Made by a program: the position numbers and the translations under genes. Below the pieces are notes generated by a model. It did not search any database and was not told the DNA's origin. It worked only from the letters and a program-made list of their open reading frames with translations. A stretch of 64,000 nucleotides of DNA. Origin: an uncultured Candidatus Saccharibacteria bacterium. GTDB lineage: Bacteria; Patescibacteriota; Minisyncoccia; Phycocordibacterales; CALRHW01. The stretch is taken from contig CAYMIL010000002.1 in assembly GCA_964390845.1 (NCBI GenBank), positions 33,885-97,884 on the forward strand. The letters run 5' to 3'. This document shows, one piece after another, positions 6,661 to 64,000 of this stretch; within the stretch, counting starts at the first letter, position 1; every line of letters starts with the position of its first letter.

Positions 6661-7227
6661 TTAGTACTTCCTCACAACCCCCTTCACCACCGCGGCGATA
6701 CGGAAACTCTCTGTTGGATAAATGGGCTTGTAGTGTTTGTTGGCAGGCTCAAGCCAGACTTTGCCCCCGCGCGTACGATAATATTTCATCGTCCACCCAC
6801 CATCGACTTCTGCAATAACAATCTCGCCATCGCGCGCATGCTCACGTCGCTCCGCAACCACCATGTCTCCCTCTTTAATTCCCTCCTCAATCATTGAATC
6901 ACCCTTCACTTCGAGCAGATAGGTGTTGCCTTGATCTTCTATCAGAAGCTCGTCGATACTTGTTGTATCAAGCGCGTCTTCCTCTGCGACAGACGGTAGA
7001 CCGGCTTCAACTAAGCCAAGGACAGGGACTTGGCCAAACATATTTTTGGGAATCAACTTACCTCTCGCATCTTTCTCTACAACACCTTCTTCGACAAGAC
7101 GATTGATAAGTTTGTATACTGCGTTTTTCGACTTAAAACCAACGAGCGCCATGATTTCCTGATACGCGGGCATTCGCCGATTTTTTTTATAGAAGCCGAG
7201 AATTTTTTGTTTGTATTCCTGATTCAT
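6661..7227 (-). CDS. lexA: LexA repressor (S24 peptidase)
   Basis: N-terminal wHTH, cleavage-site region VPVLGLVEAG (Ala-Gly), GDSM serine motif, catalytic K in C-terminal domain. Confidence 0.9.
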   Translation of the reverse strand: MNQEYKQKILGFYKKNRRMPAYQEIMALVGFKSKNAVYKLINRLVEEGVVEKDARGKLIPKNMFGQVPVLGLVEAGLPSVAEEDALDTTSIDELLIEDQGNTYLLEVKGDSMIEEGIKEGDMVVAERREHARDGEIVIAEVDGGWTMKYYRTRGGKVWLEPANKHYKPIYPTESFRIAAVVKGVVRKY

Positions 7228-7247
7228 GCGGGTGTATACCCATTATT

Positions 7248-7442
7248 CTACAGGAACGAAGCGAAGCCAAATGAACGTGTGAGCCATGATGCTCGGCGAG
7301 CGCGGTTGAGCTGACTTCGCAATGATCGGTGGCGCCGCGCCTCTTGGGCATATGACTGACCTTTTATAATTTTGATATCGATTTGCTCATTAAGACGCTT
7401 GAGCTCGTCGTGAATCGAATACAGCATTTTTGTTTTACTCAT
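7248..7442 (-). CDS. small hypothetical protein (about 65 aa) co-transcribed upstream of lexA
   Basis: ORF between the SOS promoter and lexA; start chosen at MSKTK. Confidence 0.35.
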   Translation of the reverse strand: MSKTKMLYSIHDELKRLNEQIDIKIIKGQSYAQEARRHRSLRSQLNRARRASWLTRSFGFASFL

Positions 7443-7491
7443 ATATATGTGGCGATAGTTTATTGATAATCCCCCTTCGCACTCTGTGTAT

Positions 7492-7521
7492 AGTATAGGT
7501 GAACATTCGTTCACCAGTCAA
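7492..7521 (-). promoter_or_regulatory. sigma70-like promoter (TTGACT-18nt-TATACT) driving small ORF + lexA
   Basis: Read on minus strand: TTGACT (7516-7521), TATACT (7492-7497), LexA box fills the spacer. Confidence 0.55.
7499..7514. promoter_or_regulatory. LexA operator (Cheo-box-like GTGAACATTCGTTCAC; GAAC-N4-GTTC)
   Basis: Perfect 16-bp palindrome in the lexA promoter spacer; matches Gram-positive-type SOS box consensus CGAACNNNNGTTCG. Confidence 0.6.
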
Positions 7522-7560
7522 TGTGGATAACTTTCACTATGATAAAATGACTGTACTACC

Positions 7561-8643
7561 ATGGCTCCACTCAAGCGAAAACCCGAATTTTATCTCGATG
7601 GCGCACACGCATGGGAAGCGATGCTCACTGCGTGCGAACAAGCGCGCCACTCTATCGACCTTGAACAATACATCTTTATGGTCGACACAATCGGTCGCCG
7701 ATTTATTGACGTTCTCATGCGCAAACGTATTGAAGGTGTGCGTGTGCGCATCATATGTGACACCGTTGGGAGCTTCTCATTTTACAACTCAACCGTACCC
7801 GCAATGCTCCGCGACGCGGGCATTGAGATTCGCTTTTTTAATATCGTAAGTCCGTGGCGCATTCGAGATATTTTTTCTTGGTACTTTAGAGATCATCGCA
7901 AAATACTTGTTGTCGACGAAGCGGTTGGTTTTACCGGCGGTGTCGGTATTCATGACGCCATGCGCACATGGCGCGATACGAGCGTGAGAGTGACTGGTCC
8001 GACTGCCCGAGAAATGCAAGATGCATTTGAAGAAATGTGGGATCTTGCCGCAGAAAAAAATATTTTTTCTCGACTGAAAAAATTTAAGCGCTACCACCGC
8101 GGCGAACGTCTCGTAACCAACGCCCCCTACCCGCGCCGCCGTTTTTTGTATCACACATTCATACAAGCGCTTCGCTCCGCAAGGCAATACGCGTTCCTCA
8201 CAACCCCCTACTTTGTTCCCAACCAGCGTTTTGTAAAAGAACTACGCAGAGCTGTCGCACGCGGAGTAGACGTAAAAATTCTTGTTCCAGAAACGTATGA
8301 TGTAATCTTGGTCAACCGCGCATCACACAGCTTTTTTCACGAGATACTTGAAGCTGGCGCTCATATCTACACATATTCCGGCGCATTCCTGCACGCAAAA
8401 ACAGCGGTTATCGACGATACGTGGGCAACGATCGGAAGTTTCAATTTTGACAACCTCAGCTTTACCTACAACCACGAAGCAAACATCGTTTCTATGGATC
8501 AGGCATTTATCAAGCCCCTCAAGAGCCACTTCCTCGCCGATATAGCCCACTCAAAAGAAATCCTCCTTGAAACATGGAAAAAACGTCCTCTCATATGGAA
8601 ATTGCATGAGTTTTTTGTCCTGCCAATACGCAGATTCCTCTAG
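7561..8643 (+). CDS. phospholipase D family protein / cardiolipin synthase-like (two HKD motifs)
   Basis: HRKILVVDEAVGFTGGVGIHD and HAKTAVIDDTWATIGSFNFDNLS HKD motifs; no N-terminal TM helices. Confidence 0.8.
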   Translation: MAPLKRKPEFYLDGAHAWEAMLTACEQARHSIDLEQYIFMVDTIGRRFIDVLMRKRIEGVRVRIICDTVGSFSFYNSTVPAMLRDAGIEIRFFNIVSPWRIRDIFSWYFRDHRKILVVDEAVGFTGGVGIHDAMRTWRDTSVRVTGPTAREMQDAFEEMWDLAAEKNIFSRLKKFKRYHRGERLVTNAPYPRRRFLYHTFIQALRSARQYAFLTTPYFVPNQRFVKELRRAVARGVDVKILVPETYDVILVNRASHSFFHEILEAGAHIYTYSGAFLHAKTAVIDDTWATIGSFNFDNLSFTYNHEANIVSMDQAFIKPLKSHFLADIAHSKEILLETWKKRPLIWKLHEFFVLPIRRFL

Positions 8644-60508: not shown

Positions 60509-60889
60509 TTAAAGGATATTAATGTGTTCTAAAAGACGTACGCGCCCTACACTCGCTTGGGTATCAAGCCCGACAACAATGCCATCTATCTGAAAAGGTG
60601 TTTCATGTGGAACACCAGACTTTAGGAGAAACATCTGCACGGTCTTTGCTACCTTGTTGATTTTTCTAGTGTGCATATTATCCTCTCCTCTCATATAGCT
60701 TTCACGTGAAACAGTTTTAACCTCAACAAAGTGTATAATCCCCTGCTTTTTGGCCACAATATCTATTTCCCCACATTTTTCACGGAAATTTCTCGCTAGT
60801 ATCGAAAAACCATGTTTCATGAGAAACATAACGGCTATTTCTTCACCCAAAGCACCTGTCTGTATATTTTTTGGCCTTTTTTCGTGCAT
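60509..60889 (-). CDS. yraN: YraN family (UPF0102) predicted endonuclease
   Basis: GALGEEIAVMFL...GEIDIVA...VEVK motifs of the PD-(D/E)xK YraN family. Confidence 0.75.
   Translation of the reverse strand: MHEKRPKNIQTGALGEEIAVMFLMKHGFSILARNFREKCGEIDIVAKKQGIIHFVEVKTVSRESYMRGEDNMHTRKINKVAKTVQMFLLKSGVPHETPFQIDGIVVGLDTQASVGRVRLLEHINIL
60695..60714. repeat. 20-nt motif TATAGCTTTCACGTGAAACA (contains 12-bp palindrome TTTCACGTGAAA), copy inside yraN
   Basis: Seen directly. Confidence 0.5.
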
Positions 60890-60918
60890 TTTGTGTGTTT
60901 CATGAATAACATTGCTTC

Positions 60919-60938
60919 TATAGTTTCACGTGAAACAT
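60919..60938. repeat. 20-nt motif TATAGTTTCACGTGAAACA (14-bp perfect palindrome GTTTCACGTGAAAC), copy 35-47 nt upstream of yraN start
   Basis: Seen directly. Confidence 0.5.
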
Positions 60939-61156
60939 ATATTTGAGCAAAGTGACAAAAAATCCCTTATCTAAGCCATTTTTTGGCCAAAAGACACTTC
61001 TAACAGACAGTTAAAATAGTGTCTTTAATGCACATATCCCCATAGTTATCCCCAGTTTTCCACACTTTTTGGGACAACGTCAGGGTCATTTGTCGCTAAA
61101 AAGCGAGTATAAAGACATTAGTCCCTAATACGTCCGAGAAGGCAGAAGAGAAGAAG

Positions 61157-61230
61157 TGGTGCGGGTAGGGGGAATCGAACCCCCGTCTCGTCCTTGGCAA
61201 GGACGTATTCTACCACTAAACCATACCCGC
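61157..61230 (-). tRNA. tRNA-Gly (anticodon GCC), CCA encoded
   Basis: Acceptor GCGGGTA, anticodon loop TTGCCAA, T-loop TTCGATT. Confidence 0.8.
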
Positions 61231-61308
61231 ATTCATGAAACCCTAAAGAAACAATAACGAATTATACTGCAGGATCATGTCGTTGCACAATCCAGCCCGC
61301 TGTACGGG

Positions 61309-61380
61309 TGCTCTCGGAGGGATTCGAACCCCCAACAACGGTTCCGAAGACCGGTATGATATCCATTTCACCACGAGAGC
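61309..61380 (-). tRNA. tRNA-Arg (anticodon TCG), 3' CCA not encoded (ACCC)
   Basis: Acceptor GCTCTCG/CGAGAGC, D-loop with GG, anticodon loop CTTCGGA, T-loop TTCGAAT; one C-U mismatch at top of anticodon stem. Confidence 0.6.
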
Positions 61381-61439
61381 GATAGGGAATATCATACTCT
61401 AGATTGGCTAAAAATCAAAAGCCATACTAAAATAAACCC

Positions 61440-62966
61440 ATGAAACGACCCTCCTCGTCTCGAAAAAAGGCAGATTCCTCCTTGCCCGACACATCAGCTC
61501 GGGTTGATTTTACCGTACCAGAAGAGGTTTCACGAGTAACAAAAACCCTGAAAAATGCTGGTTTTGAGGCCTTTTTAGTCGGTGGATGCGTCCGAGACCT
61601 CCTTATGGGTCGAACCCCCAAAGACTGGGATGTTACGACAAATGCAACTCCTGAAGAAATTATTCCACTCTTTCCAAAGACGTTTTATGAAAATCCGTAT
61701 GGCACAGTAGGTGTTGTACACGAAGGAACCGAAGATCCCACACTTAAAGTCGTGGAAGTCACTCCATACCGCCTTGAAACGAGCTATTCCGACGGTAGAC
61801 GCCCCGATTCAGTGCAATTCAGTAAAAGACTCGAGGACGACCTAAAACGTCGTGATTTCACGATTAACGCGATTGCGATGGGGTCCGATGGAGAGATTGT
61901 GGACTTGTATGGAGGCATAAAGGACATTCACGCGGGAATCATTCGAACTGTGGGTGATGCGGGGGAGCGCTTCTCTGAAGACGGCCTGCGTATCATGCGT
62001 GCAGTACGTCTCTTTGCAGAACTTGGCTTTTCTATCGACCAAGATACAGAAGAGGGCATAAAAAAAATGGCTACAATGCTTGGTAAAATAGCAAAAGAGC
62101 GTATTCGTGATGAGTTTGTGAGAATTATAGAGTCTCCTCGGCCAGCGCAGGGCCTCGAAATGTCCTTTAAGCTTGGTATTCTTGGCTACATCGTGCCCGA
62201 GCTCGAACAGGGAATTGGTATAAGACAAAACCAAGCGCATGCATTTGATGTGTGGACACATCTTTTAAAAACACTTCAACACGCCGCAGACAAACAGTGG
62301 CCCCTACATATTCGTCTCGCCGCACTATTCCACGACGTAGGGAAGCCGAAAACACGTCGCTTTGATGAAGGTAAGAAAGACTACACATTCTACGGACACG
62401 AAGTTGTCGGCGCACGCATGACAGAAAAAATCATGCAGAACCTTCGTTTTTCCAACGACCTCACCGATCAAGTCGTCAAACTCGTACGCTGGCACATGTT
62501 TTTCTCAGATACAGAGCAAATAACGCTCTCAGCAGTACGCCGTCTCATCGCAAAAGTCGGGAAAGAGAACGTCTGGGACCTTATGAATGTCCGTATTTGC
62601 GACCGTATAGGCACCGGTCGCCCTAAGGAAAACCCGTATCGTCTACGAAAATACAAATCTATGATAGAGGAGGTGATGCGCGACCCCGTCTCTGTGGGTA
62701 TGCTCAAGATAGATGGAAAAGGGGTCATGGAAGCCGCACATATACCAGCAGGGCCAAAAATTGGGCATATTTTGCATGCACTCCTTGAGGAGGTACTCGA
62801 TGACCCGACACGAAACACCTCTGAATATCTACAGGAGCGAGCACTCACACTATCTACACTTTCAGAAACAGAGCTTGAAGCAATAGGAAAAAAGGGAAGA
62901 GAGAAGAAAGAGGAAGAAGATGAAAAAGGAGTAAAAGAGATTCGAGACAAGTATCACGTCGAATAA
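61440..62966 (+). CDS. cca: CCA-adding tRNA nucleotidyltransferase with C-terminal HD domain
   Basis: GGCVRDLLMGRTPKDWDVTT polymerase-beta head motif; HD motif LFHDVGK; K/E-rich tail. Confidence 0.85.
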   Translation: MKRPSSSRKKADSSLPDTSARVDFTVPEEVSRVTKTLKNAGFEAFLVGGCVRDLLMGRTPKDWDVTTNATPEEIIPLFPKTFYENPYGTVGVVHEGTEDPTLKVVEVTPYRLETSYSDGRRPDSVQFSKRLEDDLKRRDFTINAIAMGSDGEIVDLYGGIKDIHAGIIRTVGDAGERFSEDGLRIMRAVRLFAELGFSIDQDTEEGIKKMATMLGKIAKERIRDEFVRIIESPRPAQGLEMSFKLGILGYIVPELEQGIGIRQNQAHAFDVWTHLLKTLQHAADKQWPLHIRLAALFHDVGKPKTRRFDEGKKDYTFYGHEVVGARMTEKIMQNLRFSNDLTDQVVKLVRWHMFFSDTEQITLSAVRRLIAKVGKENVWDLMNVRICDRIGTGRPKENPYRLRKYKSMIEEVMRDPVSVGMLKIDGKGVMEAAHIPAGPKIGHILHALLEEVLDDPTRNTSEYLQERALTLSTLSETELEAIGKKGREKKEEEDEKGVKEIRDKYHVE

Positions 62967-63268
62967 ATCAGCCAAACAAAAACCGCCCGACGCAGTCCTC
63001 GTGAAAGCGTAGAGCGGTTGAGAAGTCCGCTCAGAAGAACAGATAGGGAGCCGGAAGCTATATCTCATTTGGGGGAGAAATTGAAGATATATATGTCCGA
63101 TATGATCCCGTCTGCCCAAGCGACCCTCGTGGGGTGGCCGACCCAATTCCTGACAGAACTATTGAGGTAAATGTCCTTTAGGGGGACTAAACGGACTCTC
63201 CTCGGCTCTGGCAAAAGTATAGCACGCATAAAAAAATGTAAAAGACATTTCCTGTGGATAAGTGTCCT

Positions 63269-64000
63269 TTATGCTTTCAAAAAGAGCGCGAGTGGACAAT
63301 GATCTGACCCCCCAACAGTGTGGAGCATGTCCATCGACTGAACCCGAGGCAACATGTCTGGACTCACGAAAAAATAATCGATACGCCAGCCAACATTGCG
63401 TTCACGCGCAAATGTTTTCATATCCCAATAGCTATAGGCATCTTTTTTATCTGGGTACAAATAGCGAAACACGTCTACATACCCGTGTTCGATAACACTA
63501 TCTATCCACGCCCGCTCCTCGGGGAGAAAACCTGTATGCTCAGCGTTTTCTTTCGGTCGAGCGAGATCTATTTCTTTATGAGCAGTGTTGACGTCGCCAC
63601 AAAAAATGACCCCCTTGCCGGTTTTTCTCAATTTCTCAATATAGTTTAAAAACTCGGCGTAAAAATTGAGTTTATACTGAAGGCGCTCTGGGCCACCACC
63701 TCCATTGGGGAAATATACGTTTACCAAGACAAAATCGTTAAAATGAGCTGCGATTAGACGACCTTCATCATCGAGAGTCGGGACACCCATGATGTACTCG
63801 ACGTGTTCAGGCTCTTTTTTTGAGTATATGGCGACACCACTGTAGCCCTTTTTCTGCTTAGGAAAATCAAAAAAAGCATGGTATCCCTTTGGCGCACGCA
63901 CCTCATTTGGCAATTGATCCGGCTCAGCCTTCATTTCCTGCAAACAAAACATATCTGGAGACTCTTTGATGAGCCAATCCCACTGGCCCTTCCTATGAAG
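63269..64000 (-). CDS. xth: exodeoxyribonuclease III / AP endonuclease (5' end beyond window)
   Basis: CLQEMK, NVYFPNGG, DVNTAHKEIDL, SDHCPL motifs of the EEP/ExoIII family; ORF continues to the window edge. Confidence 0.85.
   Translation of the reverse strand, partial: LHRKGQWDWLIKESPDMFCLQEMKAEPDQLPNEVRAPKGYHAFFDFPKQKKGYSGVAIYSKKEPEHVEYIMGVPTLDDEGRLIAAHFNDFVLVNVYFPNGGGGPERLQYKLNFYAEFLNYIEKLRKTGKGVIFCGDVNTAHKEIDLARPKENAEHTGFLPEERAWIDSVIEHGYVDVFRYLYPDKKDAYSYWDMKTFARERNVGWRIDYFFVSPDMLPRVQSMDMLHTVGGSDHCPLALFLKA

What the first reader, a model, noticed from the sequence alone, without database searches (positions are those of the whole stretch)
6661..7560. Complete SOS module: lexA operon with a Gram-positive-type LexA box in a near-consensus promoter, divergent from a PLD-family gene
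LexA is clearly recognizable: the AG cleavage site, the GDSM serine motif and the catalytic K are all present. Upstream on the same strand sits a 65-aa ORF.

The two genes are preceded by TTGACT-18nt-TATACT (read on the minus strand). The perfect palindrome GTGAACATTCGTTCAC (GAAC-N4-GTTC) fills the spacer between the hexamers. That is the classic arrangement for LexA autorepression.

A perfect DnaA-box 9-mer (TGTGGATAA, 7522-7530) abuts the -35 element. The same region is the upstream region of the divergent HKD-motif phospholipase D / cardiolipin-synthase-like gene, so that gene could be SOS-regulated too.

The small ORF in the operon is a candidate SOS effector, for example a cell-division inhibitor analogue.
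Basis: partly seen in the sequence, partly recalled or inferred. Interest (0 to 1): 0.55.

Follow-up and report, generated by a model that had tools for sequence, protein, structure and literature searches.

The report
Self-repressed lexA operon with conserved small gene
This is the DNA-damage (SOS) repressor gene lexA of an ultra-small Paceibacteria (CPR) bacterium; across at least 80 related species it is transcribed together with an uncharacterised 64-residue protein from one promoter that carries a LexA operator and a DnaA-box-like 9-mer.

Summary
lexA lies at 6661-7227(-) and scores above the NCBIfam LexA cut-off; by alignment to E. coli LexA it has the cleavage site A75-G76 and the catalytic S111 and K148. 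A 64-aa ORF (7248-7442, not 65 aa) sits directly upstream. Both are preceded by TTGACT-18-TATACT, and GGTGAAC-GAAT-GTTCACC fills the spacer exactly.

One GAAC-N4-GTTC in 64 kb equals chance. The evidence is conservation:
- 79 of 80 lexA loci from different Paceibacteria species have the small ORF directly upstream.
- 73 have a perfect GTGAAC-N4-GTTCAC between the hexamers, with a free N4.
- All 73 have TTATCCACA (two-thirds exact, the rest one mismatch) just upstream of the -35.
- Four distant members of the small-protein family show the same layout.

The small protein is under purifying selection (dN/dS about 0.05-0.11). It is very basic, a predicted helical hairpin with an aromatic C-tail, and matches no known family. 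dinB, umuDC-like or rarA-like genes follow lexA in some relatives.

Not supported:
- SOS control of the PLD gene. It abuts the promoter only in this genome.
- A 'complete' module. There is no recA in the window, no second box, and uvrA in three relatives has no box.

The 9-mer also occurs in other promoters of the clade, so it is not specific to lexA. The LexA part is ordinary. The small protein and the 9-mer are the leads.

The parts
6661..7227 (-). lexA, 188 aa: N-terminal winged-helix DNA-binding part plus an S24 self-cleaving domain (A75-G76 cleavage site, S111/K148 dyad)
   Evidence: It scores 128.1 bits against TIGR00498, above the cut-off of 110.95. Peptidase_S24 matches at 6.9e-27. The catalytic residues follow from the alignment to E. 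coli and T. maritima LexA structures. Relatives of 62-87% identity occur in more than 570 species.
7248..7442 (-). Small ORF, 64 aa, first gene of the operon: a basic (+9) predicted helical hairpin with an aromatic/hydrophobic C-terminal tail, from an uncharacterised family
   Evidence: It has no Pfam, NCBIfam or PDB sequence match. The family has 287 cluster representatives. It lies upstream of lexA in 79 of 80 species and in 4 of 4 distant members. dN/dS is 0.05-0.11. AlphaFold2 predicts helices 3-27 and 32-57 with pLDDT 79.
7492..7497 (-). -10 hexamer TATACT
   Evidence: Found by the promoter scan. TATACT or TATAAT occupies the same place in 73 orthologous promoters.
7498..7515 (.). LexA operator GGTGAAC-GAAT-GTTCACC (core GAAC-N4-GTTC at 7501-7512), filling the 18-nt spacer
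   Evidence: Located. A perfect GTGAAC-N4-GTTCAC occurs in 73 species with a variable N4 and in distant loci L119-L122.
7516..7521 (-). -35 hexamer TTGACT
   Evidence: Found by the promoter scan. TTGACn or TTGCAG is conserved at this position.
7522..7530 (-). DnaA-box-like 9-mer TTATCCACA, abutting the -35
   Evidence: It is exact in 47 and one mismatch off in 26 of 73 orthologous promoters, always in the same orientation. Only 1.6% of random 45-nt windows match as well. It also occurs in other promoters of the clade.
7561..8643 (+). Divergent neighbour, not part of the module: a PLD-family, cardiolipin-synthase-like gene with two HKD motifs. Its own candidate promoter is TGATAAAAT at 7540-7548.
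   Evidence: PLDc_2 matches at 1.8e-43. TIGR04265 scores 261 bits, below its cut-off of 290. The close adjacency to the box is unique to this genome.

Best explanation
This is the autoregulated lexA operon of a Paceibacteria (Parcubacteria, CPR) bacterium.

One sigma-70-type promoter (TTGACT-18-TATACT) drives a two-gene transcript: a 64-aa basic helical protein, then LexA. The LexA dimer binds GTGAAC-N4-GTTCAC, which occupies the whole spacer between the -35 and the -10, so bound LexA excludes RNA polymerase. After DNA damage, RecA-stimulated self-cleavage of LexA at A75-G76 (dyad S111/K148) frees the promoter, and both proteins are made. New LexA then closes the promoter again.

A TTATCCACA element just upstream of the -35 is a second, conserved input. 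It is most likely a DnaA site that couples the promoter to replication status.

The small protein is most likely an SOS effector. My preferred guess is an inhibitor of cell division or another membrane-proximal process, with the aromatic C-tail acting as a membrane-binding or turnover signal.

Shown: gene identities, promoter and operator anatomy, conservation, selection on the small ORF, and operon linkage with dinB/umuDC in relatives.
Inferred: LexA binding, RecA dependence, DnaA binding, and any function of the small protein.
For: LexA identity rests. The promoter and operator geometry rests.

The operator is conserved. 73 of the 75 loci with enough upstream DNA have a perfect GTGAAC-N4-GTTCAC exactly between -35-like and -10-like hexamers, and the four central bases vary freely. 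This is the signature of a dimer-binding dyad. GAAC-N4-GTTC is the experimentally established LexA motif of Firmicutes and Actinobacteria (PMC4951493).

The operon structure is conserved. The small ORF lies directly upstream on the same strand in 79 of 80 species. The gap from its stop codon to the lexA start is -4 to 40 nt in most. Four distant family members show the same layout and the same promoter.

The operon has SOS character. dinB follows lexA directly in at least 10 of 80 species and in 5 of 5 loci of a more distant clade. An umuD-like gene plus an umuC-like gene follow in L119, and a rarA-like gene follows in L036.

The small ORF is coding. dN/dS is 0.05-0.11, and differences at codon positions 1/2/3 are 0.46/0.34/0.64.

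The 9-mer is conserved in 73 of 73 promoters within one mismatch, in a fixed orientation and at two preferred spacings.
Against: - No binding or expression data exist for this organism.
- Only one box is in the window, and no further boxes above chance occur within 10 kb of lexA in 80 species.
- uvrA in three relatives has no box, and recA could not be examined. The regulon may be very small, and the link to a wider SOS response is unproven.
- The small protein has no transmembrane segment. Its longest run without K, R, D, E, H, N or Q is 15 residues.
- It has no detectable homology or specific fold match to any division inhibitor or RecA/LexA modulator.
- TTATCCACA also sits about 30 nt upstream of -10 hexamers of other genes and candidate RNA genes in the clade. 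It may therefore be a general promoter element rather than a lexA-specific DnaA input.
Confidence: 0.8

Rival explanations
1. The small protein is not a downstream effector. It is a partner or modulator of LexA or RecA, such as a co-repressor or an anti-cleavage factor, made in fixed ratio with LexA. It would resemble small phage or host proteins that tune LexA or RecA (gp7 of phage GIL01, DinI, RecX; named from general knowledge).
For: The two genes are tightly or translationally coupled: the stop-to-start distance is -4 to 40 nt in most species, with ATGA overlaps in four. The pairing is near-absolute in both directions. The protein is very basic, with median net charge +8, and forms a helical hairpin. 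Both features suit binding to DNA or to another protein.
Against: A sister clade with a LexA of about 55% identity uses the same box and promoter without any small ORF, so LexA works without it. There is no sequence or fold similarity to known modulators. The conserved aromatic/hydrophobic C-tail is not explained by this idea.
Confidence: 0.25
2. TTATCCACA is not a DnaA site here. It is a clade-specific upstream promoter element or the site of another global factor, shared by a class of Paceibacteria promoters.
For: There are 38 exact sites outside lexA promoters in 1.3 Mb. About 15 of them have a -10-like hexamer 24-34 nt downstream in the same orientation, with a peak at 30 nt. In the opposite-orientation control, only 15 of 203 relaxed sites do. 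One example in the window is 63261-63253(-), which is followed by TTTACA-17-TATACT and a structured non-coding stretch. Several such promoters lack a good -35.
Against: The 9-mer is identical to the near-universal DnaA-box consensus (general knowledge). The window also holds a head-to-tail array of three such boxes, with starts 13 and 10 nt apart (61033-61064), next to a cluster of parS-like sites. That is a typical DnaA setting. In clade L088/L089 the element appears inverted, which suits a factor site better than a core promoter element.
Confidence: 0.35
3. One reading: the divergent PLD/cardiolipin-synthase-like gene shares the operator and is SOS-regulated.
For: In this genome the palindrome ends only 45 nt before the PLD start codon. 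The intergenic region is 118 nt.
Against: PLD is a neighbour only in the window's own clade (6 of 80 species), and there it lies 400-920 nt from the box. PLD keeps its own TAAAAT 6-12 nt before the ATG in all of them. In the window that would put the box at about -57 to -40 relative to the PLD start site, outside an extended -10 promoter. The promoter scan found no promoter-like site on the + strand in the intergenic region.
Confidence: 0.1
4. The S24 protein is a prophage or mobile-element repressor (CI, HdiR or UmuDAb-like) rather than the chromosomal LexA.
For: The Pfam LexA_DNA_bind match is below its cut-off, at 17.8 bits against 23.7.
Against: The full-length LexA equivalog model scores above its cut-off. 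The gene sits among housekeeping genes (infC-rpmI-rplT, polysaccharide genes), and this synteny is kept in relatives. It is present in more than 570 species with a conserved promoter. No phage genes are nearby.
Confidence: 0.02

Closest known systems
LexA (DinR) and the GAAC-N4-GTTC operator ('Cheo box') of Firmicutes and Actinobacteria
   Same: The dyad core GAAC-N4-GTTC is the same (PMC4951493). The repressor has the same domain plan and catalytic residues. The operator overlaps the repressor's own promoter, giving autoregulation.
   Different: The flanks are TG/CA (GTGAAC...GTTCAC), not CG/CG. A single operator fills the -35/-10 spacer exactly. lexA is the second gene, behind a small ORF. 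A DnaA-box-like 9-mer is part of the conserved promoter.
SOS network of the Patescibacteria (Sanchez-Osuna, Barbe and Erill, Environ Microbiol 2017;19:3465, cited in PMC8565304)
   Same: It covers the same superphylum and the same regulator. The paper is cited as documenting the SOS response in this group.
   Different: The paper is not held in the library. I therefore could not check which motif it reports, or whether it mentions the small ORF or the 9-mer. Any overlap lowers the novelty.
Small SOS-induced cell-division inhibitors encoded next to lexA in Gram-positive bacteria (YneA, SosA, ChiZ/Rv2719c, DivS; general knowledge)
   Same: They are small genes physically linked to lexA and controlled by the same LexA operator region.
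   Different: Those genes are divergent from lexA and encode proteins with a transmembrane segment, often with LysM. This gene is co-transcribed upstream of lexA. Its product has no transmembrane segment and no sequence similarity to them.
DnaA-box-controlled promoters (E. coli dnaA, nrdAB, uvrB P3; B. subtilis sda; general knowledge)
   Same: A consensus 9-mer TTATCCACA lies close to the -35 of a promoter tied to replication or repair.
   Different: Here there is a single box rather than a cluster. The spacing classes are fixed, either abutting the -35 or about 8 nt further up. It co-occurs with a LexA operator in every species examined. No paper in the searched library holds both 'DnaA box' and 'lexA promoter'.
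lexA operons carrying translesion polymerase genes (lexA-imuA-imuB-dnaE2 in Opitutus, PMC4951493)
   Same: In relatives the operon continues into dinB or into umuD/umuC-like genes.
   Different: In the window itself no polymerase gene follows lexA. The next gene on the same strand is a polysaccharide-biosynthesis membrane protein.

Membership tests
LexA repressor | C-terminal S24 self-cleaving peptidase domain | tested here: met
   PF00717 matches at 6.9e-27 over residues 68-181.
LexA repressor | Ala-Gly cleavage site and Ser/Lys catalytic dyad | tested here: met
   A75-G76, S111 and K148 align with A84-G85, S119 and K156 of E. coli LexA. They are invariant in 27 relatives.
LexA repressor | N-terminal LexA-type winged-helix DNA-binding domain | tested here: inconclusive
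   PF01726 scores 17.8 bits, below its cut-off of 23.7. However, the full-length equivalog TIGR00498 scores 128.1 against a cut-off of 110.95, covering residues 14-187.
LexA repressor | Palindromic operator in its own promoter (autoregulation) | tested here: met
   The operator lies in the spacer of TTGACT-18-TATACT and is conserved in 73 species.
LexA repressor | RecA-stimulated cleavage after DNA damage | not testable with these tools
   No recA is in the window or in any fetched locus. This needs biochemistry.
Firmicutes/Actinobacteria-type LexA box | Inverted repeat GAAC-N4-GTTC | tested here: met
   The core is at 7501-7512. The arms are invariant and the N4 is free across species, although those 73 rows were selected by this pattern. 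73 of 75 eligible loci have it.
Firmicutes/Actinobacteria-type LexA box | CGAAC...GTTCG flanks of the B. subtilis consensus | tested here: not met
   The flanks are GTGAAC...GTTCAC in all 73 promoters.
SOS regulon (several LexA-controlled operons) | Boxes upstream of core SOS genes (recA, uvrA, dinB) | tested here: inconclusive
   dinB and umuDC-like genes are controlled by being inside the lexA operon in some species. uvrA has no box in 3 of 3 relatives. There are no extra boxes above chance near lexA. recA was not available.
DnaA box | 9-mer matching TTATCCACA | tested here: met
   It is exact at 7522-7530(-).
DnaA box | Functional constraint (conservation at orthologous sites) | tested here: met
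   73 of 73 orthologous promoters match within one mismatch, against 1.6% of random 45-nt windows.
DnaA box | Bound by DnaA | not testable with these tools
   No dnaA locus is in the held sequences. The element also occurs in other promoters.
SOS cell-division inhibitors (SulA, YneA, SosA, ChiZ, SidA) | Sequence homology to a known inhibitor family | tested here: not met
   No Pfam or NCBIfam family matches the window protein or ten family members. The PDB profile search found nothing significant.
SOS cell-division inhibitors (SulA, YneA, SosA, ChiZ, SidA) | Membrane anchor (transmembrane helix) as in YneA, SosA and SidA | tested here: not met
   The longest run without K, R, D, E, H, N or Q is 15 residues at most, with a median of 8. 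There is only a short aromatic C-tail.
SOS cell-division inhibitors (SulA, YneA, SosA, ChiZ, SidA) | Expression under LexA control | tested here: met
   It is the first gene behind the LexA-operator promoter in 79 of 80 species. This is inferred from the anatomy, not measured.
Phospholipase D / cardiolipin synthase (neighbour gene) | Two HKD motifs | tested here: met
   There are two PLDc/PLDc_2 matches. HRKILVVD and HAKTAVID can be read in the translation. TIGR04265 scores 261 bits, below its cut-off of 290, so it is 'cardiolipin-synthase-like' only.

The most novel reading that the evidence does not exclude
Two linked claims make up this reading. First, the 64-aa basic helical protein founds an undescribed, clade-wide family of SOS effectors of Paceibacteria, for example a new kind of division or growth inhibitor with a C-terminal membrane or turnover tail. 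It has been co-transcribed with lexA since before the radiation of these lineages. Second, the lexA promoter integrates two signals: LexA for DNA damage and DnaA for replication status, the latter through an invariant TTATCCACA at the -35. DnaA, or whatever binds that 9-mer, would also drive a wider class of promoters in these reduced genomes.
Probability: 0.3. Interest if true: 0.7.

Novelty: new variant of a known kind. Interest (0 to 1): 0.5.

Why it matters
CPR/Patescibacteria make up a large share of bacterial diversity. Most are uncultured, and they have very few regulators. A lexA operon kept almost unchanged in more than 80 species shows that the SOS switch is retained in these tiny genomes.

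The analysis points to two concrete, testable unknowns:
- A small protein that always travels with LexA. It is a candidate new SOS effector or LexA partner.
- A DnaA-box-like element built into the same promoter and into other promoters of the clade.

Both can be tested with purified proteins and heterologous expression, without cultivating the organisms. The LexA and operator part itself is textbook.

Tried and rejected
- **Chance inside the window.** GAAC-N4-GTTC, relaxed TGAAC-N4-GTTCA and the DnaA 9-mer are not enriched in the window. The window cannot define a regulon.
- **Known families for the small protein.** Pfam, NCBIfam and the PDB sequence profile gave nothing. Foldseek against the PDB gave only generic helical hairpins with E above 1, which is uninformative.
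- **Regulon tests.** recA is absent from the window and from all fetched loci. uvrA in three relatives has no box. The metagenome scan with a Paceibacteria DinB returned only 6 loci. In the five that include sequence upstream of dinB, dinB sits directly behind lexA; the sixth is a 1.2-kb fragment. No free-standing dinB promoter could therefore be examined.
- **Viral-contig scan.** The scan for the box plus TATA gave 27 hits, about what chance predicts. Most were one repeated phage coding sequence. Only L113 looked promoter-like, before a rarA-C-like ORF.
- **DnaA specificity.** dnaA and dnaN were not found in the held sequences, so I could not check the clade's origin boxes.
- **Rfam.** It found only four tRNAs in the window and nothing in the candidate RNA region at 62850-63300.
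- **Literature.** The key paper on the Patescibacteria SOS network is not held. No held paper contains both 'DnaA box' and 'lexA promoter'. None of the 10 listed CPR papers holds TTATCCACA.
- **Internal lexA promoter.** I rejected TTGGCT-17-AATAAT at 7270-7242 as an internal promoter. The '-35' is conserved only because it encodes the conserved SFGFAS tail, and the '-10' is not conserved.
Full report
**What is in the window**

The region 6661-7560 holds two genes on the minus strand.
- The first is a 188-aa LexA at 6661-7227. Twenty bases upstream of its start is a 64-aa ORF at 7248-7442.
- The LexA call is solid. The full-length NCBIfam equivalog TIGR00498 scores 128.1 bits against a cut-off of 110.95. 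The S24 peptidase domain matches at 6.9e-27.
- Aligned to E. coli LexA, A75-G76 falls on the A84-G85 cleavage site, S111 on S119 and K148 on K156.
- The Pfam model of the N-terminal LexA DNA-binding domain is below its cut-off, at 17.8 against 23.7 bits.
- Exact-sequence look-up places the window on a 212-kb metagenomic scaffold. The relatives of its proteins are labelled Paceibacterota or Parcubacteria, so this is a CPR/Patescibacteria genome.

**The promoter**

Read on the minus strand, 7530-7492 is TTATCCACA-TTGACT-GGTGAACGAATGTTCACC-TATACT.
- The promoter scan reports TTGACT-18-TATACT, matching 10 of 12 consensus positions.
- The 18-nt spacer is entirely an inverted repeat with 7-nt arms (GGTGAAC/GTTCACC) around a non-palindromic GAAT.
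Two small corrections apply: the ORF has 64 residues, and only the arms are palindromic.
- Inside the window the motifs are not above chance. GAAC-N4-GTTC occurs once against 1.2 expected. The relaxed 14-mer occurs 25 times against 37 expected. The 9-mer with at most one mismatch occurs 14 times against 13.7 expected.

**Conservation decides the matter**

A scan of one genome per species with an alignment of LexA relatives found more than 570 species with a relative. I kept the best 80 loci, with LexA 62-87% identical.
- A profile of the small-protein family hits a frame directly upstream of lexA, on the same strand, in 79 of 80 loci. The exception has only 96 nt of upstream DNA.
- In 73 of the 75 loci with enough upstream sequence there is a perfect GTGAAC-N4-GTTCAC. 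It always sits between a -35-like hexamer (TTGACn or TTGCAG) and TATACT/TATAAT. One further locus has a single mismatch.
- The four central bases vary freely while the arms do not. The 73 rows were selected with the arm pattern, so the meaningful number is 73 of 75. This pattern is what a dimeric repressor site looks like.
- GAAC-N4-GTTC is the experimentally established LexA motif of Firmicutes and Actinobacteria (PMC4951493).

Autorepression by LexA binding in the spacer is therefore the best-supported mechanism, although nobody has shown binding for this clade in the material I could read.

**The small ORF is a real gene**
- Within the window's clade, synonymous sites are close to saturation (pS 0.6-0.9) while non-synonymous differences are 0.10-0.21. 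This gives dN/dS of about 0.05-0.11.
- Across 76 orthologues, differences at codon positions 1/2/3 are 0.46/0.34/0.64.
- The distance from its stop codon to the lexA start is -4 to 40 nt in most species, so the two genes form an operon and are often translationally coupled.
- A profile search of 1.84 billion representative proteins finds 287 clusters at E <= 0.001, all 46-133 aa long.
- The consensus is MSK...I..E(L/I)..LN..ID.KII.G.SY..EARRHK.L, then a variable linker, then an aromatic/hydrophobic tail such as WF.RS..F.S.F.F.
- Ten members whose gene call starts too early carry 'GE(L/R)xFTYT' before the real start. That is the translation of GGTGAAC-N4-GTTCACC-TATACT.
- Four distant members (37-46% identical to P0041, the lead sequence of that search; one is labelled Nomurabacteria) were looked up. 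All four sit directly upstream of an S24/LexA gene and behind the same 9-mer/-35/box/-10 promoter.
- No Pfam, NCBIfam or PDB sequence match exists for the family. Every source calls it hypothetical.
- AlphaFold2 predicts a helical hairpin, helices 3-27 and 32-57, with pLDDT 79. Foldseek returns only generic hairpins with E above 1.
- The protein is strongly basic, with median net charge +8. It has no stretch long enough for a transmembrane helix. It usually ends in L or F after about four aromatic residues.

**SOS character and extent of the regulon**
- dinB directly follows lexA in at least 10 of the 80 species.
- In a more distant clade (LexA about 55% identical) the arrangement is box-lexA-dinB in 5 of 5 loci, and the small ORF is absent.
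- One distant locus reads small ORF, lexA, umuD-like gene, umuC-like gene. Another has a rarA-like gene 2 nt after lexA.
- So the promoter controls classical SOS genes where they are attached to it.
- In the 1.2 Mb around lexA in 80 species there are only 18 other GAAC-N4-GTTC, within the 7-19 expected. None has GTGAAC arms or a promoter context.
- uvrA in three relatives has no box even at three mismatches. recA was not present in any sequence I could fetch.
- 'Complete SOS module' is therefore not shown. The regulon may be very small.

**The 9-mer TTATCCACA**
It is exact in 47 and one mismatch off in 26 of the 73 promoters, always in the same orientation. It sits either abutting the -35 or about 8 nt further upstream. 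Only 1.6% of random 45-nt windows of the same loci do as well.
- It is also present in the distant loci. In two of them it is inverted.
- It is not specific to lexA. The 9-mer occurs 82 times in the 1.2 Mb against 13 expected, and 35 of these are outside lexA promoters.
- Once the later loci and the window are added, there are 38 exact non-lexA sites. About 15 of them have a -10-like hexamer 24-34 nt downstream in the same orientation, with a peak at 30 nt. In the opposite-orientation control, 15 of 203 relaxed sites do.
- In the window, 63261-63253(-) is TTATCCACA-G-8 nt-TTTACA-17-TATACT. It is followed by about 245 nt without an ORF or Rfam match that folds better than shuffles, with z = -2.6.
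- Three head-to-tail box-like 9-mers lie at 61033-61064, next to five parS-like sites.
- I read the element as a DnaA site used by a class of promoters. A clade-specific promoter element bound by something else cannot be excluded.

**The PLD neighbour**
- The divergent gene has two HKD motifs and resembles cardiolipin synthases, but scores below the equivalog cut-off.
- It is the neighbour of the operon only in the window's own clade (6 of 80 species). There its start lies 400-920 nt from the box.
- It keeps its own TAAAAT a few bases before the ATG in every case. In the window this is TGATAAAAT at 7540-7548.
- The 45-nt distance in this genome looks like a local deletion. SOS control of PLD is not supported.

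**Mechanism and its weak points**

Three steps are supported by sequence anatomy and conservation:
- LexA sits on the spacer and blocks the promoter.
- Damage-induced self-cleavage opens it.
- The small protein and LexA, plus a polymerase in some species, are then made together.

Three steps are inferred: LexA binding, RecA dependence and DnaA input.

For the small protein I commit, with low confidence, to an SOS effector acting at or near the membrane, or marked for fast turnover by its tail. The grounds are that Gram-positive bacteria keep their small SOS division inhibitors next to lexA (general knowledge) and that the tail is conserved. The main rival is a LexA or RecA partner, suggested by the tight coupling. 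The sister clade, however, works without it.

**Novelty**

A self-repressed lexA with a GAAC-N4-GTTC box is known biology. The SOS response of Patescibacteria has been described in a paper I could not read (cited in PMC8565304). Two features are the new variants: the obligatory small partner gene and the conserved 9-mer at the -35. I found no paper in the library that mentions either.

Noticed in passing
window 60599-61541: There is a cluster of five parS-like sites (TGTTTCACGTGAAACA with 1-3 mismatches) at 60599, 60698, 60813, 60922 and 61526. Only 0.4 are expected in the whole window. Four of them are spaced about 100-115 nt apart, inside or beside a yraN-like gene. This is probably an origin-proximal centromere-like region. 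GC skew shows no sign change in the window.
   Followed up: partly
window 61033-61064 (+): Three head-to-tail DnaA-box-like 9-mers (ATATCCCCA, TTATCCCCA, TTTTCCACA), with starts 13 and 10 nt apart, lie in the intergenic region between the yraN-like gene and tRNA-Gly(gcc).
   Followed up: no
window 62967-63261 (-): TTATCCACA-G-8 nt-TTTACA-17-TATACT is followed by about 245 nt without an ORF. This stretch contains GAGGAGAGTCCG, ends in a hairpin plus a T-run, and folds with z = -2.6. It has no Rfam match at any threshold. It is a candidate non-coding RNA gene driven by a promoter of the same class as the lexA promoter.
   Followed up: partly
loci L012, L045, L048, L055, L057, L061, L063, L068, L071, L072, L077, L079, L082 (positions): Exact TTATCCACA sits about 24-34 nt upstream of -10-like hexamers, with a peak at 30 nt, in many non-lexA promoters of Paceibacteria. 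Several are followed by GGCTTCGGCC-type sequences that look like RNA genes. L014, L017 and L034 instead have the 9-mer upstream of a gap-like gene.
   Followed up: partly
L013, L028, L033, L035, L037, L042, L043, L045, L048, L055, L086-L090; L119:3567-5273; L036:10575-11753: In relatives the lexA operon continues into other genes. It continues into dinB in at least 10 of 80 close species and in 5 of 5 loci of a distant clade. It continues into an umuD-like plus umuC-like pair in L119, and into a rarA/mgsA-like gene in L036. In the window the next gene is a polysaccharide-biosynthesis membrane protein instead.
   Followed up: partly
window 7540-7560 and L006-L011 upstream of the PLD gene: The PLD gene keeps a TAAAAT only 6-12 nt before its ATG in all relatives. 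In the window this is TGATAAAAT, an extended -10. This implies a very short or absent mRNA leader.
   Followed up: no
record titles of L037, L052 and many others: Several genomes carrying this Paceibacteria-type operon are labelled 'Nanoarchaeia archaeon', 'Bacteroidales bacterium' or 'Saccharibacteria'. These are likely mislabelled or contaminated metagenome bins.
   Followed up: no
L113:5064-5084 (viral contig IMGVR_UViG_3300037483_001801): The only promoter-like copy of the box outside lexA operons is GGGTGAACGGTTGTTCACTTATAAT, 27 nt before an ORF that resembles the C-terminal domain of RarA/MgsA.
   Followed up: no
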